From: a phage
Length of the DNA: 64,000 bases
Sequence record: PZ476263.1
Strand: one strand, 5' to 3'
Position numbers and translations under genes: made by a program. A model generated the notes under the pieces. It had not been told where the DNA came from, made no database searches, and was given only the letters and a program-made list of their open reading frames with translations. Position 1 is the first letter of the stretch, and each line of letters starts with the position of its first letter. This document shows, one piece after another, positions 20,493 to 48,809 of this stretch.

Positions 20493-20493
20493 A

Positions 20494-20742: not shown

Positions 20743-20747
20743 ATTAA

Positions 20748-20871: not shown

Positions 20872-20900
20872 GGCTCTCCTTTTTTGGAGGGCCTTTTTTA
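20872..20900 (+). terminator. intrinsic terminator ending the tRNA/early rightward unit
   Basis: GGCTCTCC-tttttt-GGAGGGCC followed by TTTTTTATTT. Confidence 0.6.
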
Positions 20901-20914
20901 TTTGGTCTTTCGGT

Positions 20915-20923
20915 GATAAAATA
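20915..20923 (+). promoter_or_regulatory. late-type promoter element GATAAAATA (extended -10-like TGnTAAAAT)
   Basis: gTGATAAAATAc 17 nt upstream of spanin start; same motif recurs upstream of other late operons. Confidence 0.45.
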
Positions 20924-20939
20924 CTCAAAGGAGGTAATC

Positions 20940-21302
20940 ATGCCAGATTTTAAAAAATATTTATTCATTGCTATATTCATAGTGTTCTTAATTTCATCTG
21001 CTAAGCTTTATCTTAATCATGTTGAATCAGTAGGTTACGAAAAAGGTTTCAATGTTGCTAACTCTGCTTGGGTAAAAAAGGCAGGGGAGTACAAAAAGAA
21101 AATTGACGATACATATGAAGAAAACAAGCGTCTTAACGAGGAGCTTTCCCGATCCAATCAGGAAAAGATAAAGGATGAAAAGGCAAAAGAAGAAAAAATT
21201 ACCGATATGCAGATCGAATACTACAAGTCTGAAAAAGGTAAGGATGTCTTTGACAATAATGAAATAATTGACATATACAACGAATCCTTGGGGGTAAAAT
21301 GA
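20940..21302 (+). CDS. i-spanin-like protein (N-terminal TM helix + periplasmic coiled coil)
   Basis: MPDFKKYLFIAIFIVFLISSAKLYL TM followed by charged coiled-coil; ATG at 20940 after AGGAGG RBS. Confidence 0.5.
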   Translation: MPDFKKYLFIAIFIVFLISSAKLYLNHVESVGYEKGFNVANSAWVKKAGEYKKKIDDTYEENKRLNEELSRSNQEKIKDEKAKEEKITDMQIEYYKSEKGKDVFDNNEIIDIYNESLGVK

Positions 21303-21598
21303 GAAAAATATTTATAGCTTTCTTCTTTTGCTTTTTACTTTCCGGTTGTCAATCAGCAGAAATCTGTGGCCCTACGGAAGAAGTAACTATTGAGAAGATT
21401 CTTCCTAAACCTGATCTTGAACTCCTTGTCAAAGAAAAGGAAAAGAAGCTCATCCAGAAGGGATCTACTAATGCAGACGTTGGAAAGGTCATGAGTGATA
21501 ACAATCTTCGTTCCAATCGTATAGAGCGCCGTTGGGAAGGCTTAAGGACTTACGTTTGCAACAGTTTCAAAAATATCCCTAAAGAATACTGCGATTAA
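21299..21598 (+). CDS. o-spanin-like outer-membrane lipoprotein
   Basis: signal peptide with lipobox FLLSGC; ATGA overlap with upstream i-spanin-like gene. Confidence 0.5.
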   Translation: MRKIFIAFFFCFLLSGCQSAEICGPTEEVTIEKILPKPDLELLVKEKEKKLIQKGSTNADVGKVMSDNNLRSNRIERRWEGLRTYVCNSFKNIPKEYCD

Positions 21599-21606
21599 CA
21601 TTGACA

Positions 21607-21638
21607 GGCCCTTGCTTTTATGCAAGGGCTTTATTTTT
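21607..21638 (+). terminator. intrinsic terminator
   Basis: GGCCCTTGC-ttttat-GCAAGGGCT followed by TTATTTTT. Confidence 0.6.
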
Positions 21639-21650
21639 AGTGCTTTTTGT

Positions 21651-21659
21651 GGTAATATA
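21651..21659 (+). promoter_or_regulatory. late-type promoter element GGTAATATA (variant of GATAAAATA)
   Basis: tgTGGTAATATAcc 37 nt upstream of terminase start. Confidence 0.35.
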
Positions 21660-21695
21660 CCTTTTATCGACAGAAGTCAATAGTTAAGGAGAATT

Positions 21696-22050
21696 ATGTC
21701 TGCTACATTCGCACCTGCGAGTCGCAAGCAACAAATGGTTCTCGAATCTACAGCACAGATTATGGTAATAGGTGGTGCAGCAGGATCAGGTAAATCATAC
21801 CTTTTACAGTTGATGCCTTTGCTTATTGTAAACGACCCTAAAACAGCCTGCATCATGTTTCGTCGTACTGTACCGCAGATTCGTGGACAAGGTGGCTTGT
21901 TTGACAAAGCTAAAGATATTTATAACCAGCTGCCTCCGGTAGTTAAGCCGAAGTTTAAAGAGAACGAGATGACTGCTACATTCCCTAACGGAGCAACCGT
22001 TAAGTGGCAGTCTATGCAACACGTAAGTGATAAATACGACATCCAGGGGT
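21696..22050 (+). CDS. terL: terminase large subunit, exon 1 (Walker A ATPase segment)
   Basis: IGGAAGSGKSY Walker A; frame terminates at TAA 22050-22052 inside predicted intron 1; predicted 5' splice site after U22050. Confidence 0.6.
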
Positions 22051-22960
22051 AAAAATTTCCTGCCCATCGTATCTTAATCGGTGAAACTCTGTTATAATAA
22101 GTACAGACAATACCGAGATCCATTACCTGAAATGACAGTAGGGAGATATGATGAAAAAATTTGAAATTGTTCCAAGCAAACCTGAATTTTCCGTAAGTGA
22201 AGACGGGCTGATTATGTTTACCTCTACAGGTACTATTCTTAAGCCGTATGTTGATAAGGATGGTTACCACAGGGTTAGAAATTTCTCTGCTGGAGGTAAA
22301 TCTCATTACATCGCCGTTCATCGCGCCGTTGCTGAGGTTTTTGTTAAAAACCCTAACCCAAAAGTGTTTAAGATTGTTAATCACTTGGATAATGTTAAGA
22401 GCAACAATCATAAAACCAATTTGGAATGGACAACCGAATCATTAAACCGAGTTCATGCAGTTCATGCCAACGGTACAGCATCTGTTAGAAACAATGTTAA
22501 ATTTACAGAAGGTCAAGTCAGAAAGGTGTGTGAACTTTTGAGCTTGGGCTATCGGATAGTTGATATTGTGAAACTTACAGGCGTTGATAGATTCAATGTG
22601 ATGGCAATTAGAAGCGGAAAATCTTGGGTTCAGATCTCTTGTGAGTTTGAAACTTTAAAAGTAGAAAGAAAAGATACACTGTCTGAAAAGACGATTCTTT
22701 GGATTAAAGACCAAATTAATCGCCAAAGGTCAGATGATGAAATACTTTTAATGTCGGTAAGACTTACAAAAGAAGAGCTTGAAAGAGCAAAGAAGATTAT
22801 TTCATTGATGGATTGTAACGACTAATGCTGATGAGTGTAAGCATGTAGGGCCAAGCGGTCCGAAACGATACGCCAAGGATGGAAGATATAGTCTGAACTA
22901 TATGGTGACATATAGCTGCTTAAGCAGGGTTAAGATTAGCGATCTTAATCGAACACAATG
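22051..22960 (+). mobile_element. group I intron 1 (about 910 nt) with internal HNH homing endonuclease ORF
   Basis: S element AAGATATAGTC at 22883-22893, R-like AACGACTAA at 22818-22825, P9 hairpin CTATATG-GTGA-CATATAG (GNRA loop), candidate IGS GCCC near 5' end, 3' end ...GAACACAATG. Confidence 0.6.
22148..22825 (+). CDS. intron-encoded HNH homing endonuclease
   Basis: DGYHRV...HRAVAEVF...NHLDNVKSNNHKTNLEW HNH core; lies wholly between terminase exons. Confidence 0.65.
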   Translation: MMKKFEIVPSKPEFSVSEDGLIMFTSTGTILKPYVDKDGYHRVRNFSAGGKSHYIAVHRAVAEVFVKNPNPKVFKIVNHLDNVKSNNHKTNLEWTTESLNRVHAVHANGTASVRNNVKFTEGQVRKVCELLSLGYRIVDIVKLTGVDRFNVMAIRSGKSWVQISCEFETLKVERKDTLSEKTILWIKDQINRQRSDDEILLMSVRLTKEELERAKKIISLMDCND

Positions 22961-23014
22961 TGGAATTTACATTTATAGGTGTGGACGAAGGCACTCAGTT
23001 TGAGTGGGAGCAGT
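22961..23014 (+). CDS. terL: terminase large subunit, exon 2 (54-nt micro-exon encoding Walker B-like FTFIGVDEGTQFEWEQ)
   Basis: in-frame segment between two intron cores; hydrophobic stretch + DE typical of terminase Walker B. Confidence 0.5.
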
Positions 23015-23341
23015 TAATCTAGCTGCCTCGTACAGTAATGTACGATGAGAAATTCTTGTGAATTGCTGGAAAATCCTTAGAGCTTGTAAAACTACAACAT
23101 GACCTGCAAAGGTGAGTGTGAATGTTAAAAATTTACAAGATTGGACGATCAGCCTCCAAGCCTCTTTACGAGAGGAAGGTTCAACGACTAGCCGAAAGGC
23201 GTAGATCATAAGCAAATGATGATCGAAGTGCAAGACCCCTACCTTATTGGTAGGGTGAAGATATAGTCTGATCTGCATGGTAACATGCAGCAGTGCTTGA
23301 GTGCACGGCAACGAACTTGCGATCCGTTGCGAACATAACAG
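23015..23341 (+). mobile_element. group I intron 2 (about 327 nt, ORF-less)
   Basis: IGS-like GCTGC pairing with exon GCAGU; R-like GTTCAACGACTAG 23179-23191; S AAGATATAGTC 23258-23268; P9 CTGCATG-GTAA-CATGCAG; 3' end ...GAACATAACAG. Confidence 0.55.
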
Positions 23342-24420
23342 TAGAATACATGATGTCTCGTCTTCGTTCCAGTTCTTCTTACCCTTCACGAATGGTAATT
23401 AGTTGTAACCCTGATCCTGATCATTATCTTCGTAAGATGGTTGATTGGTATCTCGATAAGGATGGTTATCCTGATCCTACAAAGGATGGAGTCATTCGAT
23501 ATTTCGTTCGAGTTGATGACCAATACATGTGGGGCGAATCAGTAGAAGAGCTTAAGAAGCGGTACGGTAAGAAATGTAAGCCTGTTTCTTTTACATTTAT
23601 ATCTTCTACTATTTACGATAACCCACCAATGCTTATTAACAACCCAGACTATCTAGCACAGCTGGAAGGTCTTAATGAGGTTGACAGAGCAAGACTGTTA
23701 CACGGCAACTGGGATGCACGTCCTCAGGGTGCTAACTATTTTAAACGTTCTTTTCTTAAAGAGGTTGATGTTCTTCCTTTAGGTGTAGATAAGGTTAGAT
23801 CATACGATAAAGCAGGAACTGAACGTTCTACAGGTAATAAAACACCTGACTTTACAGCCGGAATCGGTGTGGCGAGAGATCAGGACGGAATTTATTATCT
23901 TTTTGGCGATTATTGTGAAGAGTTTGTTGATGAAGGTGATTGGTCTACTGGCAACCTTGGTAGGTTCTGTAAGAAAGCTGGTGAACGAGATACGATCATT
24001 ATGAAACAAGCAATTCATGACGGTGATGATGTTAGAATAATATTCCCTGTTGACCCTGGTCAAGCGGGTATTGCTGAATTCACTACATCTTCCCGAGAAT
24101 TATTAAATCAAGGATTCATTGTTGAGAAAGACCCAACTCCTGGTAACAAGAAGAAGCTTGTACGCTTCTCTCCGTTTGCTAACCTTGCTCAGAACGGATT
24201 TGTTAGGATTGTTAAAAAGTCTTTCCCTTTGGATACCTATGAAGCATTAATGAAAGAGCTTGAATCTTTCAATGGTGAAAGGTCAACAGGGACACGTAAA
24301 GATGACTGGGTGGATGCTATCTCAACCGGAATAAATTTCCTTGAGAAAACAGAAATAGTCAGGGCTGTTACAATACCACGACCTTCTGCCCCAACACTTT
24401 ATTCGAAGTATCGACGATAA
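23342..24420 (+). CDS. terL: terminase large subunit, exon 3 (nuclease domain)
   Basis: continues ...EYMMSRLRSSSSYPSRMVISCNPDP...; acidic nuclease motifs DQDGIYYLFGDY, DPGQAGIA, DDWVDAISTG. Confidence 0.6.
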
Positions 24421-24429
24421 CCGAGGGGA

Positions 24430-25962
24430 ATGATTTTGAAAAATAAGAAAAGTCGTAAAACTAATGTTCGCAAAGCAACTAGCGAAGAATTAAATGTTTC
24501 TCGTCTTCGTATGAGTGAACAAGGTACTTTTGCACTGGCTAAGGTTCAGATCGAAACTGAACGAATGAAAGCCGAAGAAATTAAATGGCCTCAGCTTATC
24601 GGTACTGTTGAAGCTATGAAGCAAGATGCTACGGTAGCGACTGGCCTTGATATGCTGTATACTTTCGTAGAAAAAGCATTTAAGGATTTTAAAGTTATTC
24701 CTGGTAAATCAAAAGAATCACAGGATGCTGCCGACTTTATCACTTATTGTTTGAAGAATATGGAAGGACAAACTCTTCGCCAGTTTGCTCGTGATGCTGC
24801 AACATTTAATGAATACGGAATCTCCGTAGTAGAAAAAGTTTATACGCAGATCCTTACTGGTGAATATGCTGGCAAGTTTAAAATTAAAAATCTTGCTTTC
24901 CGACCACAAGCGTCTTTAAGTCGTAAAAATCCTCTCGTATATAGCGATGACGGTTCTAGAGTAATTGGCGTTAAACAGACCCTTACTTCTTTCAAGAATT
25001 ACACAAATAGCGTATTGGGCAATAGTTCTGGATTTATTGGTTCTCGCAACGGTGATGATGTTATCATTCCTGCAAACAAGGTTATGATCATGACCACTGG
25101 CGGATCTTCGTCTCAGGCACTAGGCGTTTCACCTCTGGTTGCTTGCTATCGACCTTGGCGTGAAAAGGTTCTGATTGAAAACTTAGAAGTTGTTGGTGCT
25201 ACAAAAGATATGGGCGGTGTTATCGAATTAAAGATACCTTCTTCCATACTTAACAAAGCTGCAATTGACCCATCAAGCTACGAAGCTGAAATGGTTCAGG
25301 GTCTAATGGCTGACGCAGCCAACGCCCACTCTGGTGAGCAATCTTTCTTTATGCTGCCTTCTGACACTAAAGATAACGCTCCTTTATACTCAATGTCTCT
25401 GAAAGGCATTGACGGTATGGGTAAACAGTACAGCACTCGTGACCTTATCAGTGATCGTAAGAAATCAATCCTTGATCGTTTGGGAGCAGGATTCCTTAAC
25501 GTGGGTAATGATGATGCTGGTTCTTATAATCTGTCTGAGTCTAAGCAAACAATCCACACTCAATTTGTACAACGTGTAAATGAAATTATTGCTGAAGCAT
25601 TAAATGAGAATTTACTCCCTCAGCTTCTGGCATTAAATGGTATTCGCCTTGAACAAAAAGAAATGCCTTTCATTAAATTCGGTCAGATTGTTGACACAGA
25701 TATGGAAGGATTCTCCAAAGCTGTACAGCGTATGGGTGCTGTAGGTTATCTGCCTAAGACTCCAGAAGTAATCAATAAGATCCTTGACGTACTTGGAATT
25801 GATTATCAGTTGGCAGAAGATATTTCTCAAGAAGACCTTATGTTGCTTCTTGGAGATAATACCAGTCGTTCAGGTGATGGCTTTGCGCCAGGTTCGACAG
25901 GAAACGGGACTGGAAAGATTAGTGCTTCAAGAGACAATTCAATTTCTAACTTAGAAAATTGA
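24430..25962 (+). CDS. portal protein (putative)
   Basis: 510 aa ORF immediately downstream of terminase; size and position typical of portal. Confidence 0.5.
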   Translation: MILKNKKSRKTNVRKATSEELNVSRLRMSEQGTFALAKVQIETERMKAEEIKWPQLIGTVEAMKQDATVATGLDMLYTFVEKAFKDFKVIPGKSKESQDAADFITYCLKNMEGQTLRQFARDAATFNEYGISVVEKVYTQILTGEYAGKFKIKNLAFRPQASLSRKNPLVYSDDGSRVIGVKQTLTSFKNYTNSVLGNSSGFIGSRNGDDVIIPANKVMIMTTGGSSSQALGVSPLVACYRPWREKVLIENLEVVGATKDMGGVIELKIPSSILNKAAIDPSSYEAEMVQGLMADAANAHSGEQSFFMLPSDTKDNAPLYSMSLKGIDGMGKQYSTRDLISDRKKSILDRLGAGFLNVGNDDAGSYNLSESKQTIHTQFVQRVNEIIAEALNENLLPQLLALNGIRLEQKEMPFIKFGQIVDTDMEGFSKAVQRMGAVGYLPKTPEVINKILDVLGIDYQLAEDISQEDLMLLLGDNTSRSGDGFAPGSTGNGTGKISASRDNSISNLEN

Positions 25963-25983
25963 TCTTTGCTTTAAATCAATCTC

Positions 25984-26601
25984 TTGCAAAACGTATCGTT
26001 CAGTGTTAAAATAAATATCACGGGAGCAATGATGGAAAACATTACTATCTCCGACCTTCCTTCACATACCTATCTGTCTCGAATTCAAAAGAGTCGGGCT
26101 GTGAAAAAGGCCAATGAGCTACTTGAAAAGGGCTTCAATAAGGAAGCCTCTATATCAGGAGCCATTGGCTCCGTTCTTATTCAAAAATCCAATCAGCAAG
26201 AAGAAATGATTTCTTATGAAATTATTTACGAACCTGATACTCCTGACCTGCATGGTCAGTGGATGAGTAAAGAAACATTAGTTAAGGCGCAACAGGATTT
26301 CAAAAAGGCTCAAGAAATAGGGGCCGTAACTGAAAACCTTTATCACTTGGTTGATACCGAAGCATTCAAGATCGTAGATCATTGGATTCAGCCAGAATTT
26401 GATGTAACTGTCGCTGCGACAGGTGAAGTCATTAAAGCAGGATCTTGGGTAGCAAAAGTTCAATATACACCTGAAGCATGGGAATTGAAAAAGGCTGGCA
26501 TCGTCGGCGGATTATCTCTTCAATGTGGCGGGATGTTGAATGAAGAAACAAATGAGCTATCCGATCTTGATTTCAGTATCGCATTGGAAGAGGAAGAATA
26601 A
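25984..26601 (+). CDS. head maturation protein (possible prohead protease); start probably at 26029
   Basis: position between portal and scaffold; GGGAG RBS before ATGATG at 26029. Confidence 0.3.
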   Translation: MQNVSFSVKINITGAMMENITISDLPSHTYLSRIQKSRAVKKANELLEKGFNKEASISGAIGSVLIQKSNQQEEMISYEIIYEPDTPDLHGQWMSKETLVKAQQDFKKAQEIGAVTENLYHLVDTEAFKIVDHWIQPEFDVTVAATGEVIKAGSWVAKVQYTPEAWELKKAGIVGGLSLQCGGMLNEETNELSDLDFSIALEEEE

Positions 26602-27686
26602 TGATTAAGACGTTGATAGAGAAAGGACGCAAGATTAAATCTCGCGGAATTGCTCTAACTCACAAAGACCAAGGTTACAGTGCTAATAATCGTCCTGTAA
26701 GCCTTCTCACCAAATCTGATATTGACCCGAATAAATTGACGGTTGATATTATCAAAACTTTAGAGCAAGTTCAGGTAACCCTGAGCATGGAAGAATTTCT
26801 TCGTAGATTCTTCGGTCTGTGGTCAGACGATGCTGAATTACTCGCAAAGATTCTGGGTTTTAAAACTGAATTTGAAGAGTATGTAGAAAATACAGACGAT
26901 CCTGATACATACGAAGAAGCTTATATTAAGCGTCATCAAGAATATATTGAAGAAAAGCTTACCACACTTTCAATTATCAACAAAGCAAAAGAAGGTGCTG
27001 ACCTTTCACTGTTGGAACGCTACGAACTAATTAAGACTCGTAAGCAATTCGAAGAAGGTTGTGCTGAACTGAATCTTGATTTTGGTGATACATCAACCTT
27101 ACGCAAGCCAGAAATTGATAAGGTAGAGAAATCTGCTGAATCTAAACCTGCAAGCTCCGCTGGAGCTACCACAACCATTAAGGAGACTCCTGTGGAAAAA
27201 GAAGTAGACGTGACTAAGTCTAAGCAATTCATTGACCTTATGAAAGCCAATGAAGCGCTGATGGCACAAGTACAGGGTATGCAAGAGACTTTCCTTGCTG
27301 CTCAAGATATCGTTAAAGCTCAAGCTGTTGCTAAACGTGAAATTGCAATCAACAAAGCTGCAAGCTTTGCATTTGTTGCTGAAGAACAGCGTGAAGCAGT
27401 TGCTGATCTGATTGAAGACCCAGCTAAAGCTACTGTTGTTGCTGTACTGGAAAAAGCCGCCGCCTCCCTGAAAGAAAAAGATGAAGCACTGGCAGCTAAA
27501 GACGCAGAAATCGAAGAGATCAAAAAATCCTTCGCTAATGGTGAAGAAACTGGTGCTGATGGTCAACTGACTGAAGTTGCTAAAGGTGCTGAAGATGCTC
27601 AAGCTCGCTTGAATCGTATTATCGCAGACCGCGCTGCTGAAATTGCTAAAGCTGCAAGTGGCACTTCTGAATTTATTAACGTCTAA
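26601..27686 (+). CDS. scaffolding protein
   Basis: 361 aa, acidic, Ala/Glu/Lys-rich predicted helical protein (AKAQAVAKREIAINKAASFAFVAEEQREAVADLIEDPAKA). Confidence 0.55.
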   Translation: MIKTLIEKGRKIKSRGIALTHKDQGYSANNRPVSLLTKSDIDPNKLTVDIIKTLEQVQVTLSMEEFLRRFFGLWSDDAELLAKILGFKTEFEEYVENTDDPDTYEEAYIKRHQEYIEEKLTTLSIINKAKEGADLSLLERYELIKTRKQFEEGCAELNLDFGDTSTLRKPEIDKVEKSAESKPASSAGATTTIKETPVEKEVDVTKSKQFIDLMKANEALMAQVQGMQETFLAAQDIVKAQAVAKREIAINKAASFAFVAEEQREAVADLIEDPAKATVVAVLEKAAASLKEKDEALAAKDAEIEEIKKSFANGEETGADGQLTEVAKGAEDAQARLNRIIADRAAEIAKAASGTSEFINV

Positions 27687-27706
27687 TTATCGAGGAAACA
27701 AATAGA

Positions 27707-28132
27707 ATGGCTAAAGCACACGTTGTAACTCTTGAAGGGAACTATTCCGATATCGTACTGGGCCGTGTTGTTGCATTTGGTGACACGGGTTGGAACTTTG
27801 AAGAAGTAGATATGGCATACACCGCTGACCTAGTGGCTGGCCTGCTGGTAGCTGCCGATGGTACTCCGGCTGCGGCTGCTGCTGATGTATACGGTGTTCT
27901 GGTTGACCGTAAAGTCCTGCCTGGTGTTACTAAGCATGATGGTGCAACCCCTATGGCTGGTGAAACCCTGCCTATGACTATCGCTGTTCGTGGTCTGACC
28001 CTGAACGCAACTAAACTGGTTTACGCTGATGGTAGCCCAATTGACGACGCTGGTAAGCTGGCTCTGTCTAAAGCTGGTAACCAAGTAACTGATCGTGTAG
28101 TAGCTACCGAATTCCTCGGCGCTATCCTGTAA
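27707..28132 (+). CDS. head decoration protein (lambda gpD-like position)
   Basis: 141 aa gene directly upstream of major capsid gene; shares its strong codon bias. Confidence 0.45.
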   Translation: MAKAHVVTLEGNYSDIVLGRVVAFGDTGWNFEEVDMAYTADLVAGLLVAADGTPAAAAADVYGVLVDRKVLPGVTKHDGATPMAGETLPMTIAVRGLTLNATKLVYADGSPIDDAGKLALSKAGNQVTDRVVATEFLGAIL

Positions 28133-28155
28133 TTATTTCGAAGGAGACATTTTAA

Positions 28156-29151
28156 ATGCAAAACGGTGATTTTCAAATTCTGGATTATACTGGCCTGATT
28201 CAAACCCTGCCGCGTGTTGATACCCTGCTGCAAAGCATGAATCTGTTCACTGAGAACTTTGGTCGTACTACTATCGCTAAAATCGAACGTCGTGATGACG
28301 GTGCTGGTCAGATCAATGCTGTTCAGCGTGGTAGCGTTCGTCAGCACCTGGGTAATGATCGTAAAAAGATCGCAAACCTGAACATCCCGTTCTTCCCTCT
28401 GGACCGTTCTATTGACCGTGCTGATATCCAGAACTTCCGTGAATTCGGTACGGATAATGCTCCGGCAACCGTAGAAGCTGAAGTTGCTCGTCACCTGGCT
28501 CGTATTCGTCGTAGCCATGCGGCACTGAAATCCAAAGCAATGTATGCTGCACTGAAGGGTACTTCTTGGTCCCCGAACGATCCGGTTTGTGATTACGACT
28601 ACTACGATGTTTGGGGTGTTACCCAGCAGACCGCCGATATCGACTTCACCGCTCTGGCGGTTGACCCGATTGAAGTTATCGAAGCTGAAGCTCGTGCTCA
28701 CATCATCGATTACGCTGGCGACAGTGGTGACAACTACGAAATCGTAGTTATGGCATCCCGTCAGTGGTTCTCTGCACTGATCGCTCACCCGCAGGTAACT
28801 GGTGCTTACTCTCAGTATCCGTCTACTCAGGAAGTTCTGCGTCGTCGTCTGGGTGGCAATGCTAACAACCGTATCTTCGAACACAAGAACGTGCTGTTCA
28901 TCGAAGATATTTCCGGTAACATCCCAGCTGGTGAAGCTTATATCTTCCCTCGTGGCATCGACCGTATGTTTGAAATCTACTACGCGCCGAGCGACACTCT
29001 GGAAGGTGCTAACCAAGTTGCACAGGAACTGTATGTATTCTTCAAAGAATCTCAGTACCTGCGTGAAGCTAAGATCGAATCTGAAACTTCCTTCCTGACA
29101 GTTAACAACCGCCCTGAGCTGGTAGTTAAGTCAACTGGTAAGTTTGAATAA
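28156..29151 (+). CDS. major capsid protein (lambda gpE-like)
   Basis: 331 aa; highly biased codon usage (CTG, CGT, GGT) typical of abundant virion protein; strong RBS; followed by terminator. Confidence 0.6.
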   Translation: MQNGDFQILDYTGLIQTLPRVDTLLQSMNLFTENFGRTTIAKIERRDDGAGQINAVQRGSVRQHLGNDRKKIANLNIPFFPLDRSIDRADIQNFREFGTDNAPATVEAEVARHLARIRRSHAALKSKAMYAALKGTSWSPNDPVCDYDYYDVWGVTQQTADIDFTALAVDPIEVIEAEARAHIIDYAGDSGDNYEIVVMASRQWFSALIAHPQVTGAYSQYPSTQEVLRRRLGGNANNRIFEHKNVLFIEDISGNIPAGEAYIFPRGIDRMFEIYYAPSDTLEGANQVAQELYVFFKESQYLREAKIESETSFLTVNNRPELVVKSTGKFE

Positions 29152-29168
29152 TTTTAATAACTATCTTA

Positions 29169-29196
29169 AAGGTCACCTTCGGGTGGCCTTTTTTAT
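29169..29196 (+). terminator. intrinsic terminator (UUCG tetraloop)
   Basis: AGGTCACC-ttcg-GGTGGCCT followed by TTTTTTATT. Confidence 0.65.
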
Positions 29197-29213
29197 TATG
29201 CCTGTACATTTTG

Positions 29214-29222
29214 GATAAAATA
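29214..29222 (+). promoter_or_regulatory. late-type promoter element GATAAAATA
   Basis: ttTGGATAAAATAgtg directly after capsid terminator. Confidence 0.4.
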
Positions 29223-29275
29223 GTGTACTATTATAAGATAGGCCCTTAATATAATCAATGACGAAGGAGTTATTA

Positions 29276-29887
29276 ATGTCTAAATCAACTCACTTAGAAA
29301 TCTTTCGAAGTGAATATCACATGCTCAAATTCTTTGGGGAATATCTTGAAAAGTTAGATGTTAATACATCTGCTCGATTGGGAGCTTTCCTTTATAGTTA
29401 TGACGGAAACTTAGTTCTGGCCCGTGGCCTTTATGATTTTCTTTCTCAAATGGAAAAAATGACTGCCTTGGGTATTGATGTTAAATCATCTACTCAGAAA
29501 GGTACTAGCTTCTTGGTATTTTTTAAAGAAAAACCAAAAGCCCCTGAAAAATTCCGTCAAGATGTTAAAAAGATTGAAGCTTTGAAAGAAGCAATTGTAG
29601 TAGCTACTCCAGCTAAAACTATGGAGGAGACTATCCTTGTTTCTACGAAAGTAGAAGAAGAGGGTAAATCTGAAGAGACTGTGGAAGTAGAAGAAAAAGT
29701 TGTTAAGTCTTCTCGTAGTCAAGAAGAAAAAGCAGAGATCTTAGCAAAAGCGGAAGAACTTCGTGATGACAGTAAGAAAGCTGCTGCAAAAGCTGCACTC
29801 GAAGCTTTCGGTATGGAACACGGTGTTTCTCTGAGCAAAGGTAAAACCTTTGATGCGATGTTGGAAGATTTAGCTGCTGCACTTTAA
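29276..29887 (+). CDS. hypothetical structural-region protein
   Basis: AAGGAG RBS before ATG at 29276; charged Lys/Glu/Ala-rich C-terminal half. Confidence 0.4.
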   Translation: MSKSTHLEIFRSEYHMLKFFGEYLEKLDVNTSARLGAFLYSYDGNLVLARGLYDFLSQMEKMTALGIDVKSSTQKGTSFLVFFKEKPKAPEKFRQDVKKIEALKEAIVVATPAKTMEETILVSTKVEEEGKSEETVEVEEKVVKSSRSQEEKAEILAKAEELRDDSKKAAAKAALEAFGMEHGVSLSKGKTFDAMLEDLAAAL

Positions 29888-29940
29888 TCCCGCCTCAAGC
29901 CCCTACTCTGGGGCTTAAATTCCTAGGAGAAATTTAATAA

Positions 29941-33729: not shown

Positions 33730-33739
33730 TTTTCAATAA

Positions 33740-33760
33740 GGGGGCTTCGGCCCCCATTTT
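33740..33760 (+). terminator. UUCG-tetraloop hairpin, possible terminator/attenuator
   Basis: GGGGGC-ttcg-GCCCCC followed by ATTTT then AAGGAG RBS. Confidence 0.4.
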
Positions 33761-33771
33761 AAGGAGAAGTA

Positions 33772-34407: not shown

Positions 34408-34419
34408 TCGAGGTAATAT

Positions 34420-36036
<1,617 letters not shown>

Positions 36037-36074
36037 TTTAATTATAATTCACAGGGACGTGATTAGGAGATAAT

Positions 36075-37658: not shown

Positions 37659-37662
37659 CATG

Positions 37663-37690
37663 AAAGCCACCTTCGGGTGGCTTTATTTTT
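37663..37690 (+). terminator. intrinsic terminator (UUCG tetraloop)
   Basis: AAAGCCACC-ttcg-GGTGGCTTT followed by ATTTTTAT. Confidence 0.65.
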
Positions 37691-37748
37691 ATACAAATGA
37701 CTTTCTTTTAATTTTGTGATAACATGTTTTAATACACTGGAGGATAAT

Positions 37749-38273: not shown

Positions 38274-38335
38274 AGCTTTGACTTTGTTGCTTTTGCTCAT
38301 CTATTGTGGTAAAATAACTTTCATGGAGAATAACC

Positions 38336-38797
38336 GTGAAGAAAGTATCAACAATTGATTTTTCCGTCATGGACCACTATTACGACCAAATAACTGAATT
38401 GGAAGGCAAAGAAATAGAAGTAGGATTCTTTGACGAGCCTCACTATTCAGGTCTTAATATGGCAACTCTCGCCGCTATTCATGAAAACGGCTGGCACAAT
38501 CTCCCTGAACGTAATTTCATGCTTTCTACCGCTGTTCATTACAGGGGTGGACTCTATAAGAATCTTGCAAAACTTCATTCGGATATTCTCAAGCGTAAAC
38601 CTTATACTGTCGCTCTTAATAAGATCGGCAAGGATTATGCAGATAGTATCCGATTCACTATCGACCAAGGGACATTTACCAATAACCGAGTATCCTCGGA
38701 ATGGGCCAGTGTTAAGGGTTTCAGTGATGCAATGATTCACTACGGAGATCTTTACAGTTCAGCGAAGTTTAAGATTGTTGCACTAACGAAAGACTAA
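38336..38797 (+). CDS. head-tail joining / neck protein (putative)
   Basis: 153 aa, synteny. Confidence 0.3.
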   Translation: MKKVSTIDFSVMDHYYDQITELEGKEIEVGFFDEPHYSGLNMATLAAIHENGWHNLPERNFMLSTAVHYRGGLYKNLAKLHSDILKRKPYTVALNKIGKDYADSIRFTIDQGTFTNNRVSSEWASVKGFSDAMIHYGDLYSSAKFKIVALTKD

Positions 38798-38806
38798 GGG
38801 GGCTGA

Positions 38807-39897: not shown

Positions 39898-40007
39898 ATC
39901 CGGTTATTGATAGGCACTTGCTTATCAGTGACAAATGAGGGGCTTCGGCCCCTAATCAATTGGCACTTCCGTGCTAGTCAATAATCGTCTAGAAGCAGAG
40001 GATAAAC

Positions 40008-41423: not shown

Positions 41424-41426
41424 TAA

Positions 41427-41909: not shown

Positions 41910-41984
41910 TTACGTGAGCCTCAGGGATGAGGCCCTTATTCACGGTATGGAAAATATTAACTAAGTGGACACAGGAGTGTAAAC

Positions 41985-42458: not shown

Positions 42459-42484
42459 GGCCGCTTAGTACCGTAGAGAGGGCT

Positions 42485-42727
42485 TTGGACTACGCCAGAA
42501 GAAATTCCAGCTTGAAATGGTATGACTATCTTTATTTCCGTGTCATGGAACGCTTTAAGGGCGTTAATGAGTTATCTATCGAAAGTGGTGACATGGAGGA
42601 TCTTCTTAAAAAGAATGAATATCTTGATATTCAGGATTATCTGGAAGGTGCACAAGAGAAAGAGAAGGAATACGAGCGGCAACGTCAAGAACAAGAAGCC
42701 CTGTTAAAACGGAGAAGAGGTAAATAA
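42485..42727 (+). CDS. tail assembly chaperone frameshift extension (E+E'/GT-like) or independent small ORF
   Basis: -1 frame relative to upstream chaperone; no ATG start (TTG); continuous with the -1 frame back to the slippery site. Confidence 0.4.
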   Translation: MDYARRNSSLKWYDYLYFRVMERFKGVNELSIESGDMEDLLKKNEYLDIQDYLEGAQEKEKEYERQRQEQEALLKRRRGK

Positions 42728-42780
42728 AAAGGGCTGGGGTCGAGAGACTCCGGCCTTTATTTTTATTATGAGGAGTTAAA

Positions 42781-45213: not shown

Positions 45214-45217
45214 TTCA

Positions 45218-45241
45218 AGAGGGCTTCGGCCCTCTTTTTTA
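45218..45241 (+). terminator. intrinsic terminator (UUCG tetraloop)
   Basis: AGAGGGC-ttcg-GCCCTCT followed by TTTTTTA. Confidence 0.65.
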
Positions 45242-45255
45242 TTGCTCGTATTCGT

Positions 45256-45264
45256 GTTAAAATA
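45256..45264 (+). promoter_or_regulatory. late-type promoter element GTTAAAATA
   Basis: cgTGTTAAAATActg 18 nt upstream of ATG at 45282. Confidence 0.4.
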
Positions 45265-45281
45265 CTGAAAGGAGGAAACTT

Positions 45282-46157: not shown

Positions 46158-46159
46158 AA

Positions 46160-46528
46160 ATGATTGACTTAGATAAGAAATACGTTAGAACTTTCGATTT
46201 TGAATTGAGTGGTTACCCTGACGAAACATTCCGTGTGGTATTGGACTCTGTAACATATGAAGTGAGATTTACTTGGAATGAAAGGGATGAATCTTGGTTC
46301 TTCTCTCTTGGAGATATCGGTGTCCCACCGACAATAACAACTAAACTCACATGTTATTCCGATATCATAGGCCCTTATCGTTATTTAGATAATGTGCCTG
46401 ATGGTAACCTTTACCTCTTTCCACTGAGAAACATTGAAACTCGTGTGGGAAGGTATAATGTTGGCCCACTTGCGGGTGTTCAAATGATCTATGCCTCGCA
46501 AGAAGAAGATGTGGAGACTATATTCTAA
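46160..46528 (+). CDS. tail/baseplate protein, putative
   Basis: 122 aa, synteny. Confidence 0.3.
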   Translation: MIDLDKKYVRTFDFELSGYPDETFRVVLDSVTYEVRFTWNERDESWFFSLGDIGVPPTITTKLTCYSDIIGPYRYLDNVPDGNLYLFPLRNIETRVGRYNVGPLAGVQMIYASQEEDVETIF

Positions 46529-47484
46529 TGAGAGCATTGGAAAGGACATATACTTTAGTTATCGGAAGACCTGTTTACATTGGTGAAAAGCCCGTCAATA
46601 TCGAGAGATATGCGAGTAACACTAACCAAGGTGAGGCATACAAGATTACAGATCTTCATATGACCTTTGAGTTGAAAAAAGATAACTCGAAGGAACCGAA
46701 TAAGGGATTTGTTAGTGTATTCAACCTTTCCGATGAAGTAGTTAACTACCTGTCTATCAACCAAAGAGAATCCTTGGCGGTTCTCTTATACGCAGGCTAC
46801 AATGGGGATGAGAAATTAATATTCTCGGGAACTATTGAATGGGTTCAAGATACCTTCAAAGACGAGACACGAGAAACAAAATTCATATTTGGAGATGGAA
46901 CTTTAAATTTAACTACTGCAACAACTGCCCGTTCTTATCGTAAAGGTACACCGACAAATCAGGTATTAAATGATCTTATTTCAGACCTGAAATTACCAAA
47001 AGGTAGAGTGGTAGATTTCGGTAATCAAACTATTCAAAACTCTATGGCTTTTACAGGATCTGCGTCTCAAAATCTTGATAACCTGGCAAAGAATACCGGA
47101 TCTACTTTCTCTGTTCAAGATGGGGCTGTGTACTGGACGAAAGAAGGCTCTCGATTCGCTAATGTAATGTTTGAAATATCTGAAGACGGTGGAATGGTTG
47201 GTGTCCCAACATTAAAACAGCCTGCGGTTTCTAAAAAGAAGAAGAAAAAGGATACTAAAGAGTCCGCGAAGACAAAAGAGAAGAATGTTAAAGAGGATGT
47301 TGGTCTTACGGTAACCACATTACTTAACGGTGCAATTCTTCCTGAGTCAACTGTGTACTTAAATACAAAGTACATAAAAGGATTTTATAAGGTGATTGAG
47401 TTAACCCATCGCGGAGGTTATGAGGGCGGCGACTGGACAACTGAATTAGGATTGGCAGAAACACGAGGGGAGTTGATAAGATAA
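46528..47484 (+). CDS. baseplate hub protein (P2 gpD-like position), putative
   Basis: 318 aa; contains internal poly-Lys tract KKKKKKDTKESAKTKEK. Confidence 0.3.
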   Translation: MRALERTYTLVIGRPVYIGEKPVNIERYASNTNQGEAYKITDLHMTFELKKDNSKEPNKGFVSVFNLSDEVVNYLSINQRESLAVLLYAGYNGDEKLIFSGTIEWVQDTFKDETRETKFIFGDGTLNLTTATTARSYRKGTPTNQVLNDLISDLKLPKGRVVDFGNQTIQNSMAFTGSASQNLDNLAKNTGSTFSVQDGAVYWTKEGSRFANVMFEISEDGGMVGVPTLKQPAVSKKKKKKDTKESAKTKEKNVKEDVGLTVTTLLNGAILPESTVYLNTKYIKGFYKVIELTHRGGYEGGDWTTELGLAETRGELIR

Positions 47485-47487
47485 ATT

Positions 47488-48228
47488 ATGGCTTATGTAG
47501 ATCGCTACGATGCTGCACTTTCTGTATTCTTTTCCAGACATATGAGAAACGTGCATACAAATATCCGAGGGAGAGTTGTAGGCGTTAACTATGCAGTACC
47601 TTCCGTAGATGTTCAACCTATGGCACAAACTCAATTTGAGAATGGTACTGTGGATAAATTCCCTGTTCTTTATGATGTGCCTATAAACTTTCCTTCAGGT
47701 GCGGGTGGAAAGGCAAGATTGACTATGCCGATCAAAGTGGGGGATATGGTCGGCGTATCTTTTTCAGAAAGAAATGAATCAGATTTTAATGATGTTACCA
47801 CCCATCAATTATTCCCAGGGTGGGCAGTCACCCAAATATTTACAGACGGAAACTCTAAGGCTTCTCACCCAGACAACGTTGTGCTTGAAAATGATAAAGG
47901 ATCATTAACTTTCACGCCCGAGGGTAAAACAACATTGAAAAACGATGTTGCTACTTTTGACGTTTCTGAAACAGGTAAGCTTAACTATACAAATGGTCCC
48001 GCCAATCTTGAAATAGACGAATCGGGAAAAATGACATTCAGCAATGGGTCTGCGAACATAATAGCAAACCCTGGTGGATTGGTAACTGTAAACGGTTGTC
48101 AAATAACCCCTTCGGGGAACGTGATAACTGCATCCGGTATTGACTTAGAGCAATTCTACAGCGAATACAGAATCCATAAACACGGTGGTGTCGAAAGAGG
48201 TGGTGATATTAGTGGAGAACCAGTATAA
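47488..48228 (+). CDS. baseplate spike protein (gpV-like), putative
   Basis: 246 aa; C-terminal repetitive Asn/Gly/Thr-rich segment (ANLEIDESGKMTFSNGSANIIANPGG); first in V-W-J-I-H-G-like series. Confidence 0.35.
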   Translation: MAYVDRYDAALSVFFSRHMRNVHTNIRGRVVGVNYAVPSVDVQPMAQTQFENGTVDKFPVLYDVPINFPSGAGGKARLTMPIKVGDMVGVSFSERNESDFNDVTTHQLFPGWAVTQIFTDGNSKASHPDNVVLENDKGSLTFTPEGKTTLKNDVATFDVSETGKLNYTNGPANLEIDESGKMTFSNGSANIIANPGGLVTVNGCQITPSGNVITASGIDLEQFYSEYRIHKHGGVERGGDISGEPV

Positions 48229-48752
48229 TGGCAACAGTATTTAAAGATTTTCTTTTAAATCCGACAACTGGGGATCTTGATTTTAGTTCTCGAACCCTTG
48301 AGGTTGTCACATCTAACCAGATGAGCTTAAGACAAAGGCTTTATATCCGTTTTGGTATCTGGCAAGGAACTTGGTATTTCGATGAAGGTATTGGATTTCC
48401 TTACGGAATGTTTATCGCTAAGAAAACCTCTAAAACAGTTCTGGACAACAGGATAAAACAAGAAGTAAGACAAGAGCCAGATGTTATCGCAATAGAAGGC
48501 TTTACTTCTTCAATTGACGTGACTAGCAGAAGTTACAAATGCTTTTTTACGGTTGTTACTTCAGAAGGGGAAGAAATAAACTTTGCATTCTTAGGGGAGG
48601 ATGCTTTCGAATACCCTACCCCGCCAGAAGGTAACGTTGAATTGTGTGGTGATGTTGGTTCATTAATCGAATTTAAGAACAAGCTTTACTATCTTATCAA
48701 CTTCAGATTACCTAAATATGGTGATTCCACTTGGGTAAATAACTGGAAATAA
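48228..48752 (+). CDS. baseplate wedge protein (gpW/gp25-like position), putative
   Basis: 174 aa; ATGG overlap with spike gene. Confidence 0.3.
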   Translation: MATVFKDFLLNPTTGDLDFSSRTLEVVTSNQMSLRQRLYIRFGIWQGTWYFDEGIGFPYGMFIAKKTSKTVLDNRIKQEVRQEPDVIAIEGFTSSIDVTSRSYKCFFTVVTSEGEEINFAFLGEDAFEYPTPPEGNVELCGDVGSLIEFKNKLYYLINFRLPKYGDSTWVNNWK

Positions 48753-48757
48753 CACAA

Positions 48758-48787
48758 GGGAGCCTAGCGCTCCCTTTTCTTTTAATT
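48758..48787 (+). terminator. intrinsic terminator
   Basis: GGGAGC-ctagc-GCTCCC followed by TTTTCTTTTAATT. Confidence 0.6.
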
Positions 48788-48800
48788 CTCGGAATATTAT

Positions 48801-48809
48801 GATAAAATA
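48801..48809 (+). promoter_or_regulatory. late-type promoter element GATAAAATA
   Basis: ttATGATAAAATAcgc 33 nt upstream of ATG at 48843. Confidence 0.4.

What the first reader, a model, noticed from the sequence alone, without database searches (positions are those of the whole stretch)
20872..48809. Recurring terminator-promoter pairs with a conserved G(A/T)TAAAATA element precede the late operons
Immediately after intrinsic terminators at 20872, 29169, 45218 and 48758 the sequence shows gTGATAAAATAc (20915), tTGGATAAAATAg (29214), gTGTTAAAATAc (45256) and aTGATAAAATAc (48801), with a variant tgTGGTAATATAc at 21651 before terminase. The motif resembles an extended -10 (TGnTAAAAT) with no convincing -35, and also resembles T4-type late promoters (TATAAATA). 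This suggests late genes are driven by a -35-independent promoter class, possibly needing a phage-encoded factor.
Basis: partly seen in the sequence, partly recalled or inferred. Interest (0 to 1): 0.6.

Follow-up and report, generated by a model that had tools for sequence, protein, structure and literature searches.

The report
Extended -10 late promoters, rV5-like phage
The repeated TGnTAAAATA element after terminators is real and conserved. It is the "putative late promoter" motif already published for phage rV5, and it reads best as an ordinary host sigma-70 "extended -10" promoter rather than a T4-style late promoter.

Summary
The window comes from a Vequintavirinae (rV5-like) myophage. 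All five cited sites exist, each one base to the left of the coordinates given. Three more sites were missed (26004, 37717, 38307), making eight.

- **Not chance:** all 5 exact TGNTAAAATA matches in 64 kb lie on the gene strand in the 5% of the late block that is non-coding. Shuffled intergenic DNA gives 0.02.
- **Two promoter classes:** the early and DNA-metabolism blocks use TTGAC(A/T)-N16-18-TAnnnT promoters (20 sites, only 1 with TGn). The late block uses TGnTAAAAT with a weak or absent -35.
- **Conservation:** the motif sits at orthologous positions in six Vequintavirinae lineages, five named genera plus the window's own, while the flanks diverge. In the complete CR3 genome it occurs only before late genes.
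- **Reading:** TG at -15/-14, invariant T-12/A-11/T-7, and a conserved TTG-type -35 at 17 bp wherever no terminator occupies that position all point to sigma-70. T4's TATAAATA is absent from the late gene strand.
- **Prior work:** Kropinski et al. 2013 reported the same motif (TggTAaAAtA, 8 copies) in rV5, made the same T4 comparison, and found no gp33/45/55 homologues.

No transcription start mapping was found in the library searched. How late timing is set remains an inference.

The parts
20872..20899 (+). Intrinsic terminator T1: stem 20872-20893 plus T-tract. It closes the tRNA and early block. Its T-tract occupies the -35 position of P1.
   Evidence: -16.2 kcal/mol; 23 nt from stem end to the -10 hexamer.
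20914..20923 (+). P1: TGATAAAATA, extended -10 with the hexamer TAAAAT at 20917-20922. It lies 26 nt before the ATG of the i-spanin gene (20940), so the predicted start is at the edge of the AGGAGG ribosome-binding site.
   Evidence: The same architecture occurs in UPEC06 and CR3.
21606..21631 (+). Intrinsic terminator T2, after the o-spanin gene.
   Evidence: -18.0 kcal/mol; 21 nt gap to the -10.
21650..21659 (+). P2: TGGTAATATA, extended -10 with the hexamer TAATAT, before the terminase large subunit gene (ATG 21696).
   Evidence: Orthologous sites: TGGTAATATA (UPEC06), TGATAATATA (CR3), TGGTAAAATC (KpS11, Hena1), each after a terminator.
25984..26013 (+). P3: TTGCAA, 17 nt, TGTTAAAATA, before the prohead protease gene (26029). 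No terminator upstream.
   Evidence: TTGCAA-17-TGnTAAAATA is conserved in UPEC06, A7_1, CR3, KpS11, Hena1 and rV5.
29168..29191 (+). Intrinsic terminator T4, after the major capsid protein gene.
   Evidence: -15.1 kcal/mol.
29213..29222 (+). P4: GGATAAAATA. This is the weakest member. The TG is misplaced by one base, and close relatives have CAAAAT instead. A conserved 50-nt leader follows (29223-29275).
   Evidence: PWM scores of the orthologues are low.
37663..37684 (+). Intrinsic terminator T5.
   Evidence: -15.1 kcal/mol; 35 nt gap to the -10.
37697..37725 (+). P5: ATGACT, 17 nt, TGATAACAT, before gene 37749.
   Evidence: Orthologues: ATGACA-17-TGATAATAT (Av-05), TGATAACAT (CR3, A7_1), TGATAAGAT (KpS11), TGCTAACAT (Hena1).
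38287..38316 (+). P6: TTGCTT, 17 nt, TGGTAAAATA, before the Neck1/tail-completion gene (38336).
   Evidence: In the six-lineage alignment A2 the invariant blocks are TTGnTTTTG and GTGGTAAAATA. Downstream gene is phrog_222.
45217..45236 (+). Intrinsic terminator T7, after the tape-measure gene.
   Evidence: -13.9 kcal/mol; 21 nt gap.
45255..45264 (+). P7: TGTTAAAATA before gene 45282, 27 nt to the ATG.
   Evidence: Orthologues: TGCTAAAATA (CR3), TGATAAAATC (Av-05, KpS11), TGATACAATA (rV5), all after a terminator.
48756..48776 (+). Intrinsic terminator T8.
   Evidence: -13.0 kcal/mol; 26 nt gap.
48800..48809 (+). P8: TGATAAAATA before the baseplate J-like gene (48843).
   Evidence: In the six-lineage alignment A1 the invariant columns cluster in T.TG.TAAAAT and the ribosome-binding site GGAGG, with only scattered single invariant columns elsewhere. 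Mean column identity is 56%. The rV5 orthologue has a TTGACT -35.
41948..41957 (+). Possible degenerate ninth site, TGGAAAATAT (T-12 replaced by A), after a hairpin and before gene 41985. The rV5 orthologue, P051, is TTGACA-17-TGGTAAAATA.
22090..22099 (+). TGTTATAATA, an extended -10 consensus inside the first insertion in the terminase gene, 49 nt upstream of the HNH endonuclease ORF (22148-22825).
42729..42758 (+). Strong terminator with no promoter behind it. It abuts the ribosome-binding site of the tape-measure gene (ATG 42781). It shows that terminator and promoter are separable modules.
   Evidence: -22.5 kcal/mol. Conserved in all genera compared.

Best explanation
These are the late-operon promoters of an rV5-like (Vequintavirinae) phage. 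They belong to the bacterial extended -10 class, with consensus (T)RTGnTAAAAT(A), which the host sigma-70 holoenzyme reads mainly through sigma regions 2.4 and 3.0.

The late block is built as a series of modules. A strong intrinsic terminator ends the upstream transcript. Its T-tract fills the place where a -35 box would be. The -10 hexamer begins 21-26 nt after the stem (35 nt at P5), and the TGn extension compensates for the missing -35. Where no terminator is present (P3, P6), and also at P5, which follows its terminator at a greater distance, a weak TTG- or TGAC-type -35 hexamer sits at 17 bp.

**Shown here:** anatomy, statistics, the separation into two classes, and conservation.

**Inferred:**
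2. Late timing comes from the contrast with the early TTGACA-dependent promoters. Either a phage protein disables -35 recognition, as T4 AsiA and Thermus phage P23-45 gp39 do while sparing extended -10 promoters, or the weak late promoters only win RNA polymerase after early promoters are shut off and template copy number rises.
For: - **Placement:** 5 of 5 TGNTAAAATA and 8 of 9 TG.TAA[ATC]AT matches on the gene strand fall in the 5% non-coding part of the late block. Shuffles give 0.02 and 0.22.
- **Extended -10 anatomy:** TG lies exactly one base before the hexamer in 7 of 8 sites, against 1 of 20 early-type promoters (p=5e-5). T-12, A-11 and T-7 are present in all 8.
- **Class separation:** TTGAC[AT]-N16-18-TAnnnT occurs 20 times on the gene strand in 26 kb of non-late DNA and never on the opposite strand there, but only twice in 38 kb of the late block. 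TGnTAAAAT occurs 6 times in the late block and nowhere else.
- **A -35 where there is room for one:** P3 has TTGCAA, P5 has ATGACT and P6 has TTGCTT at 17 bp, conserved across genera. The rV5 orthologues of two sites carry TTGACT or TTGACA.
- **Phylogenetic footprint:** in alignments across five named genera plus the window's own lineage, the conserved blocks are the motif, the ribosome-binding site and, in P6, the -35-like element, with only scattered single invariant columns elsewhere.
- **Whole genome of a relative:** in the 149-kb CR3 genome the exact motif occurs 5 times, always before late genes.
- **Strand bias in relatives:** 9 to 0 in rV5 and 7 to 0 in Hena1, with none in outgroup phages.
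- **Geometry:** predicted starts fall just upstream of each ribosome-binding site, and the motif lies 25-63 nt before the start codon.
- **Published parallels:** the same motif was reported in rV5, which has no gp33/45/55 homologues. gp39 and AsiA inhibit -10/-35 promoters but spare extended -10 promoters.
Against: - No 5'-end mapping or in vitro transcription for any Vequintavirinae phage was found in the library searched, so promoter activity itself is unproven.
- The hexamer is TAA-- in 8 of 8 late sites, and almost always in orthologues, and never the sigma-70 consensus TATAAT. Early promoters have A at that position in only 5 of 20 (p=4e-4). Plain sigma-70 preference does not explain this extra specificity.
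- An extended -10 promoter should be readable by host polymerase from the start of infection, so this reading alone does not explain lateness.
- No AsiA-, gp39- or Srd-like protein was identified in the window or in the CR3 annotation.
- P4 is not conserved as a -10 element in close relatives.
Confidence: 0.7

Rival explanations
1. The motif is read by a phage-encoded specificity factor. This could be an unrecognised gp55-like partial sigma or a sigma-appropriating activator. On this reading the late class is a phage-specific promoter type that only resembles an extended -10.
For: - The invariant TAA-- hexamer and the frequent trailing A (TAAAATA) go beyond sigma-70 preferences and distinguish late from early -10 elements.
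- The motif is confined to late genes across a whole genome.
- Many small early ORFs have no known function.
- One of them, 10295-10657 (phrog_639, labelled 'transcriptional regulator'), is a conserved helical protein with an invariant C-terminal ELD(I/L)LMGR motif and an acidic tail. It has no known structural relative.
Against: - TG at -15/-14 and T-12/A-11/T-7 are exactly the sigma-70 contacts.
- TTG-type -35 hexamers at 17 bp are conserved at P3 and P6, and perfect TTGACA/TTGACT boxes occur at rV5 orthologues. A sigma-2-only factor would not select for these.
- No sigma-like, gp55, gp33 or gp45 homologue is reported in rV5 or annotated in CR3.
- T4's TATAAATA is absent from the late gene strand.
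Confidence: 0.1
2. They are ordinary constitutive sigma-70 promoters with no temporal role. On this reading TGn is there only because the terminator T-tract leaves no room for a -35 box, and the late genes are transcribed from the beginning of infection or by read-through.
For: - Five of eight sites directly follow a terminator whose T-tract covers the -35 position.
- Kropinski et al. argued that sigma-70-like promoters spread over the rV5 genome suggest the host polymerase need not be modified.
- One early-block promoter also has TGn (19277-19305, TTGACA-17-TGATAACAT).
Against: - P3 and P6 carry the same TGnTAAAATA without any terminator upstream, so the motif is not merely compensation for lost -35 space.
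- The two classes are separated almost perfectly by functional block.
- The -10 variant itself differs between the classes.
Confidence: 0.15
3. The element is not a promoter. It would instead be a chance AT-rich word, part of the terminator, or an RNA-level signal such as a processing or translation element in the leader.
For: Intergenic DNA here is AT-rich. The motif lies between a terminator and a ribosome-binding site, where RNA signals could also sit.
Against: - None of 5000 composition-matched shuffles of the intergenic sequences reaches the observed count.
- The motif occurs without a terminator at P3 and P6.
- Its distance to the start codon varies from 25 to 63 nt, whereas its internal geometry (TG, one base, hexamer) is fixed.
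- At P1 and P7 the predicted RNA would begin after the motif.
Confidence: 0.05

Closest known systems
Putative late promoters of Escherichia phage rV5 (MEME motif TggTAaAAtA; Kropinski et al. 2013, Virol J 10:76, PMC3606486, Table S4C)
   Same: - Same consensus and the same number of copies (eight).
- Same location upstream of structural and late genes on the late strand.
- Orthologous positions: rV5 P036 corresponds to P8 here, P056 to P6, and P048 marks the same intergenic region as P7. There the PWM picks TGATACAATA about 20 nt downstream of the listed TGTTGTAAAAA core.
- The authors made the same comparison with T4 TATAAATA.
   Different: - The window comes from a different lineage of the subfamily, close to A7_1 and UPEC06 and nearer to Certrevirus. 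The tail sheath protein is about 50% identical to rV5-type phages.
- Here most sites follow a terminator directly and lack a -35, whereas two rV5 sites have perfect TTGACA or TTGACT.
- The CB7/Certrevirus paper reported only the early sigma-70-like promoter.
Bacterial sigma-70 extended -10 promoters (TGnTATAAT; -35 dispensable)
   Same: TG lies one base upstream of a -10 hexamer with T-12, A-11 and T-7. The -35 is weak or absent. T or R often precedes the TG (TRTG). The class is described in PMC3950348.
   Different: The hexamer is almost invariably TAAAAT, never TATAAT, and is often followed by A. Function has not been tested.
Thermus phage P23-45 middle/late promoters with gp39, and T4 AsiA
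   Same: In that system the phage's own middle and late promoters are of the extended -10 class. They escape a phage protein that displaces sigma region 4 and shuts off -10/-35 promoters. gp39 is also an antiterminator (PMC3351154). The window shows the same division between -35-dependent early promoters and TGn late promoters.
   Different: No gp39- or AsiA-like protein has been identified here, so the resemblance is in promoter architecture only. In P23-45 the class that gp39 inhibits is mainly host promoters.
T4 late promoters (TATAAATA; gp55 + gp33 + gp45 sliding clamp)
   Same: Recognition appears confined to the -10 region, with no -35 element at most sites. Both are AT-rich 8-10-mers placed before late genes with short leaders. 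The T4 review itself notes the likeness to extended -10 promoters.
   Different: TATAAATA is absent from the late gene strand. TG is conserved here but is not part of the T4 element. -35-like TTG hexamers are conserved at some sites. No gp55, gp33 or gp45 homologues are reported for rV5.

Membership tests
rV5-type putative late promoter motif (TggTAaAAtA) | Sequence consensus TGGTAAAATA-like. | tested here: met
   Eight window sites match.
rV5-type putative late promoter motif (TggTAaAAtA) | Located upstream of late (morphogenesis and lysis) genes on the coding strand, in a Vequintavirinae genome. | tested here: met
rV5-type putative late promoter motif (TggTAaAAtA) | Orthology of individual sites with rV5 sites. 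| tested here: met
   P3, P6, P7 and P8 have rV5 counterparts upstream of orthologous genes.
Sigma-70 extended -10 promoter | TG at -15/-14, exactly one base upstream of the -10 hexamer. | tested here: met
   Seven of 8 sites. P4 has the TG displaced by one base.
Sigma-70 extended -10 promoter | -10 hexamer with T-12, A-11 and T-7. | tested here: met
   Eight of 8 sites: TAAAAT six times, TAATAT once, TAACAT once.
Sigma-70 extended -10 promoter | -35 element weak or dispensable. | tested here: inconclusive
   By sequence, 5 of 8 sites have at most 3 of 6 matches, all from terminator T-tracts, and 3 of 8 have 3-4 of 6 with TTG or TGAC. Whether the -35 is functionally dispensable cannot be tested here.
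Sigma-70 extended -10 promoter | Initiation by sigma-70 holoenzyme 6-9 nt downstream of the hexamer. | not testable with these tools
   Needs 5'-end mapping or in vitro transcription. None was found in the literature searches.
T4-type late promoter | 8-bp element TATAAATA centred at -10. | tested here: not met
   There are no occurrences on the + strand of the late block, and only 4 in the whole window on both strands.
T4-type late promoter | Phage-encoded gp55 (sigma-2-like), gp33 co-activator and gp45 sliding clamp. | tested here: inconclusive
   No such family appeared among the 38 small window ORFs scanned, and none is annotated in the complete CR3 genome. Kropinski et al. report none in rV5. 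The window covers less than half of its genome, and remote homologues could be missed.
T4-type late promoter | No upstream (-35 or TG) sequence requirement. | tested here: not met
   TG is conserved in 7 of 8 sites and across genera, and a TTG-type -35 is conserved at P3 and P6.
AsiA/gp39-type promoter-class switch | Two promoter classes in one genome: -35-dependent promoters that are shut off, and extended -10 promoters that are spared. | tested here: met
   Class separation by block. This concerns architecture only.
AsiA/gp39-type promoter-class switch | A phage protein that binds sigma region 4 or the beta flap. | tested here: inconclusive
   No match to known families. The candidate 10295-10657 has no known fold relative. 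Binding cannot be tested here.

The most novel reading that the evidence does not exclude
The late class may not be plain sigma-70 extended -10. The near-invariant TAAAATA core has A at the third hexamer position in 8 of 8 window sites and almost all orthologues, and is never TATAAT. It could reflect recognition by, or dependence on, an undiscovered Vequintavirinae protein. Such a protein could be a sigma-4/beta-flap remodeller that switches polymerase from the TTGACA early class to the TGn late class, and perhaps also lets it read through the paired terminators as gp39 does. It could alternatively be a new specificity subunit. The conserved helical protein with the C-terminal ELD(I/L)LMGR motif (10295-10657) is one untested candidate.
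Probability: 0.25. Interest if true: 0.6.

Novelty: already known. Interest (0 to 1): 0.2.

Why it matters
Vequintavirinae are common coliphages and are often chosen for therapy and biocontrol, yet no transcription start or regulator has been mapped for them in the literature searched.

The value of this check lies in placing the motif correctly:
- It is the published rV5 late motif.
- It is conserved across the subfamily.
- It has the anatomy of a sigma-70 extended -10 promoter, not a T4 late promoter.

The clean split between -35-dependent early promoters and TGn late promoters gives a concrete, testable model for the temporal switch. It also gives annotators a simple rule for marking late operon starts in these genomes.

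Tried and rejected
1. **T4-type late promoter.** Rejected. TATAAATA is absent from the late strand, TG and -35-like elements are conserved, and no gp55/33/45 homologues are reported.
2. **Chance or AT-richness.** Rejected by shuffles of the intergenic sequences and by conservation.
3. **Motif as a by-product of terminators.** Rejected. P3 and P6 have the motif without a terminator, and the terminator at 42729 has no motif.
4. **'Putative RNA polymerase' annotated in UPEC06 and CR9 for the gene after P6.** It is a Neck1/tail-completion protein (phrog_222).
5. **Known regulators.** Pfam, PHROGs and NCBIfam scans of 38 small ORFs from the window's early and DNA-metabolism blocks returned only a FmdB-type zinc ribbon (11477-11653) and phrog_639 'transcriptional regulator' (10295-10657).
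6. **Follow-up of phrog_639.**
   - Homologues occur only in close relatives.
   - The model is a helical hairpin with pLDDT 77.
   - There is no PDB sequence or fold match.
   - It remains a lead only. Its C-terminal LDxLMG resembles clamp-binding peptides as I recall them, which is not a test.
7. **Sigma-54 reading of TGGCAC-N5-TGCT upstream of the sheath gene.** Rejected. The spacing is one base short, and the sequence is a conserved hairpin.
8. **Literature searches for Vequintavirinae transcriptomics or start-site mapping** found nothing relevant.
9. **Not done:** direct comparison with T4 gp55, gp33, AsiA and Srd sequences, and a motif scan of the window's own complete genome, of which only 64 kb is available.

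Full report
**Source of the window**

Megablast of 20000-30000 finds only Vequintavirinae (rV5-like) myophages. The best matches are Escherichia phages UPEC06, LTH01 and A5-4/A7_1 at 82-85% identity. The tail sheath protein is 90% identical to A7_1, 74% to Certrevirus and about 50% to rV5-type phages.

ORF lists, tRNA calls and the UPEC06 annotation give this layout:
- DNA-metabolism and early genes on the - strand at 1-16562.
- A divergent promoter region at 16562-16967.
- Small early ORFs and five tRNAs on the + strand up to 20824.
- One long + strand block at 20940-58774 holding spanins, terminase, head, neck, tail and baseplate genes.
- A bidirectional terminator at 58779-58802, followed by - strand genes again.

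**Checking the observation**

All cited terminators and motifs exist. The motif coordinates are one base too high. An exact search for TGNTAAAATA finds five matches in 64 kb against 1.45 expected. All five are on the + strand inside the late block.

A third new site, TGATAACAT at 37717, follows the terminator at 37663. With TGGTAATATA at 21650 and GGATAAAATA at 29213, that makes eight sites, P1 to P8.

The late block is only 5.05% non-coding, yet 5 of 5 exact matches and 8 of 9 TG.TAA[ATC]AT matches on the gene strand lie there. Shuffling the 22 intergenic sequences gives means of 0.02 and 0.22, and no shuffle out of 5000 reaches the observed counts.

P4 (29213) is the weak member. Its TG is displaced by one base, and UPEC06, A7_1 and CR3 have CAAAAT at that position.

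**Two promoter classes**

| Feature | Non-late blocks (26 kb) | Late block (38 kb) |
|---|---|---|
| TTGAC[AT]-N16-18-TAnnnT on the gene strand | 20 (0 on the opposite strand) | 2 |
| TGnTAAAAT on the gene strand | 0 | 6 |

- Only 1 of 20 early-type promoters has TGn, against 7 of 8 late sites (p=5e-5).
- The third hexamer base is A in 8 of 8 late sites against 5 of 20 early ones (p=4e-4).
- The best -35 matches for the late sites are TTGCAA (P3), ATGACT (P5) and TTGCTT (P6), each at 17 bp.
- The other five late sites have only the T-tract of the preceding terminator at the -35 position.
- Terminator stems end 21-26 nt before the hexamer, or 35 nt at P5, and fold at -13 to -18 kcal/mol.

**Conservation**

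Regions upstream of the orthologous genes were extracted from UPEC06, A7_1, CR3, rV5, Av-05, KpS11, Hena1 and two outgroups.

- **P8:** TGATAAAATA or TGGTAAAATA after a terminator in all six Vequintavirinae lineages (five named genera plus the window's own). In the alignment the invariant columns cluster in T.TG.TAAAAT and the ribosome-binding site, with only scattered single invariant columns elsewhere.
- **P6:** invariant GTGGTAAAATA plus TTGnTTTTG, the -35-like element.
- **P3:** TTGCAA-17-TGnTAAAATA in CR3, KpS11, Hena1 and rV5.
- **P2, P5, P7:** variants at the same places.
- **Complete CR3 genome (149,273 bp):** the exact motif occurs five times, all on the late strand, before the protease, Neck1, gp021, baseplate gp026 and spanin genes. 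Looser matches precede the terminase gene and three scattered genes: two annotated as structural (gp255 'virion structural protein', gp059 'major tail protein') and one as a membrane protein (gp190).
- **Strand bias of TGnTAAAAT in late regions:** 9:0 in rV5, 7:0 in Hena1, 12:2 in KpS11 and 7:5 in Av-05.
- **Outgroups:** the Plateaulakevirus and Phapecoctavirus outgroups show no bias (2:1 and 1:4).

The element is a functional, subfamily-wide feature.

**What it is**

The anatomy is that of a sigma-70 extended -10 promoter. TG lies one base before a hexamer with T-12, A-11 and T-7, often with T or R before the TG. The -35 is missing or weak.

1. The TG itself is conserved.
2. TTG-type -35 hexamers at 17 bp are conserved wherever a terminator does not occupy the space.
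3. The rV5 orthologues of two sites (P036, P051) carry TTGACT or TTGACA, which the rV5 authors listed among their 10-of-12 consensus sigma-70 promoters.

T4's TATAAATA never occurs on the late gene strand. The T4 late system needs gp55, gp33 and the gp45 clamp, and none has a homologue in rV5 according to Kropinski et al.. Predicted starts fall just upstream of each ribosome-binding site.

**How it probably works**

The late block reads as a chain of insulated units. Each terminator stops the upstream transcript, and a promoter placed immediately behind it restarts transcription. The TGn extension makes up for the -35 position taken by the T-tract. The modules are separable:
- P3 and P6 have a promoter without a terminator.
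- The strong terminator at 42729 has no promoter and abuts the tape-measure ribosome-binding site in all genera.

Timing is inferred, not shown. The closest working model is the Thermus phage P23-45. Its middle and late promoters are extended -10, and its gp39 displaces sigma region 4, which shuts off -10/-35 promoters and spares extended -10 ones. T4 AsiA has the same selectivity, and gp39 is also an antiterminator.

The two-class architecture here fits such a switch. It fits equally well with simple competition between strong early and weak late promoters, combined with rising template copy number.

**Search for a factor**

Pfam, PHROGs and NCBIfam scans of 38 small ORFs from the window's early and DNA-metabolism blocks found no sigma, anti-sigma or late-transcription family. 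The RefSeq annotation of the complete CR3 genome lists none either.

Two items carry a transcription label:
- A FmdB-type zinc ribbon at 11477-11653.
- The phrog_639 protein at 10295-10657, which has homologues only in close relatives. It models as a helical hairpin with an invariant C-terminal EQLxELD(I/L)LMGR motif and an acidic tail. It has no match to solved structures by sequence or fold.

The phrog_639 protein is an untested lead only. The gene after P6, annotated 'putative RNA polymerase' in some records, is a Neck1 protein.

**Literature and novelty**

Kropinski et al. 2013 submitted the upstream regions of rV5 late genes 27-66 to MEME and found eight copies of TggTAaAAtA. They noted its likeness to T4 TATAAATA, the absence of gp33/45/55 homologues, a possible Srd-like gp11, and 11 promoters with extended -10 regions (sites).

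The finding is therefore a rediscovery in another member of the subfamily. The CB7/Certrevirus study reported only the early sigma-70-like promoter. No 5'-end mapping for the subfamily turned up.

This analysis adds three things:
- The class assignment as extended -10 rather than T4-type.
- The clean early/late split.
- The cross-genus footprint.

**Verdict**

- Novelty: already known.
- Interest is low. There is a modest residual chance that the class-specific TAAAATA core points to an unknown polymerase-modifying protein.

Noticed in passing
window 21696-24420: The terminase large subunit gene is split into three coding pieces (21696-22052, about 22826-22985, 23293-24420). Two insertions separate them. 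One carries an HNH endonuclease ORF (22148-22825; phrog_59, E 1e-30). The other matches the Rfam group I intron model (22986-23290, 78.7 bits). UPEC06, A7_1 and CR3 have an uninterrupted 1488-nt gene. rV5 annotates the same kind of three-piece join with an HNH ORF.
   Followed up: partly
window 22090-22099: TGTTATAATA, a consensus extended -10, lies inside the first terminase insertion, 49 nt upstream of the HNH endonuclease ORF. The homing endonuclease may have its own promoter of the late type.
   Followed up: no
window 39898-40007: The 110-nt gap before the tail sheath gene has no late motif but three hairpins conserved in window, A7_1, CR3, Av-05 and Hena1.
- One is a 13-bp stem (GGTTATTGATAGGC-N4-GCTTATCAGTGAC) whose only changes are G-U-compatible, which looks like an RNA structure.
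- A GGTCA segment can pair with the start-codon region.

This could be a structured leader, a processing site or a translational control element.
   Followed up: partly
window 42729-42758: A strong terminator (-22.5 kcal/mol) abuts the ribosome-binding site of the tape-measure gene with no promoter behind it. It is conserved in all genera compared. The tape-measure gene must therefore be expressed by read-through, which suggests attenuation or antitermination.
   Followed up: partly
window 33745-33762, 53158-53175, 57505-57524, 39938-39954: GC-rich hairpins, mostly with TTCG tetraloops (GGGGCTTCGGCCCC type), sit in short intergenic gaps of the late block. Three have no T-tract. The one at 57505 is followed by TCTTTT and was called terminator-like by the scan. 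They may be RNA stabilisers or weak terminators.
   Followed up: no
window 10295-10657 (- strand): This ORF matches phrog_639, labelled 'transcriptional regulator'.
- It is a 114-120 aa protein modelled as a helical hairpin.
- It has an invariant C-terminal EQLxELD(I/L)LMGR motif followed by a variable acidic tail.
- Homologues occur only in Certrevirus-like phages, and there is no match to solved structures.

The motif resembles clamp-binding peptides as I recall them, which is untested.
   Followed up: partly
window 38336-38797; L001 34828-35256: The gene annotated 'putative RNA polymerase' in UPEC06, CR9 and 4L372XY is a Neck1/tail-completion protein (phrog_222, E 1e-35). This is a propagated misannotation.
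   Followed up: yes
window 1-16600, 16601-20824, 58801-64000: Twenty TTGAC[AT]-N16-18-TAnnnT promoters lie on the gene strand and none on the opposite strand. Several sit inside the 3' ends of upstream ORFs. Three more from the separate consensus scan pair CATAAT with a perfect or near-perfect -35 (11121 and 1637 with TTGACA, 10058 with TTAACA).
   Followed up: partly
window 18967-19045: Rfam's tRNA model gives a weak extra match (35.8 bits) next to tRNA-Met. ARAGORN did not report it.
   Followed up: no
window 29223-29275: The leader after P4 (AGTGTAC[CT]ATTATAAGATAGGC...AATCAATGACGAAGGAG) is conserved in UPEC06, A7_1 and CR3 even though the TAAAAT hexamer is not. The true promoter or another signal for this operon may lie here.
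   Followed up: no
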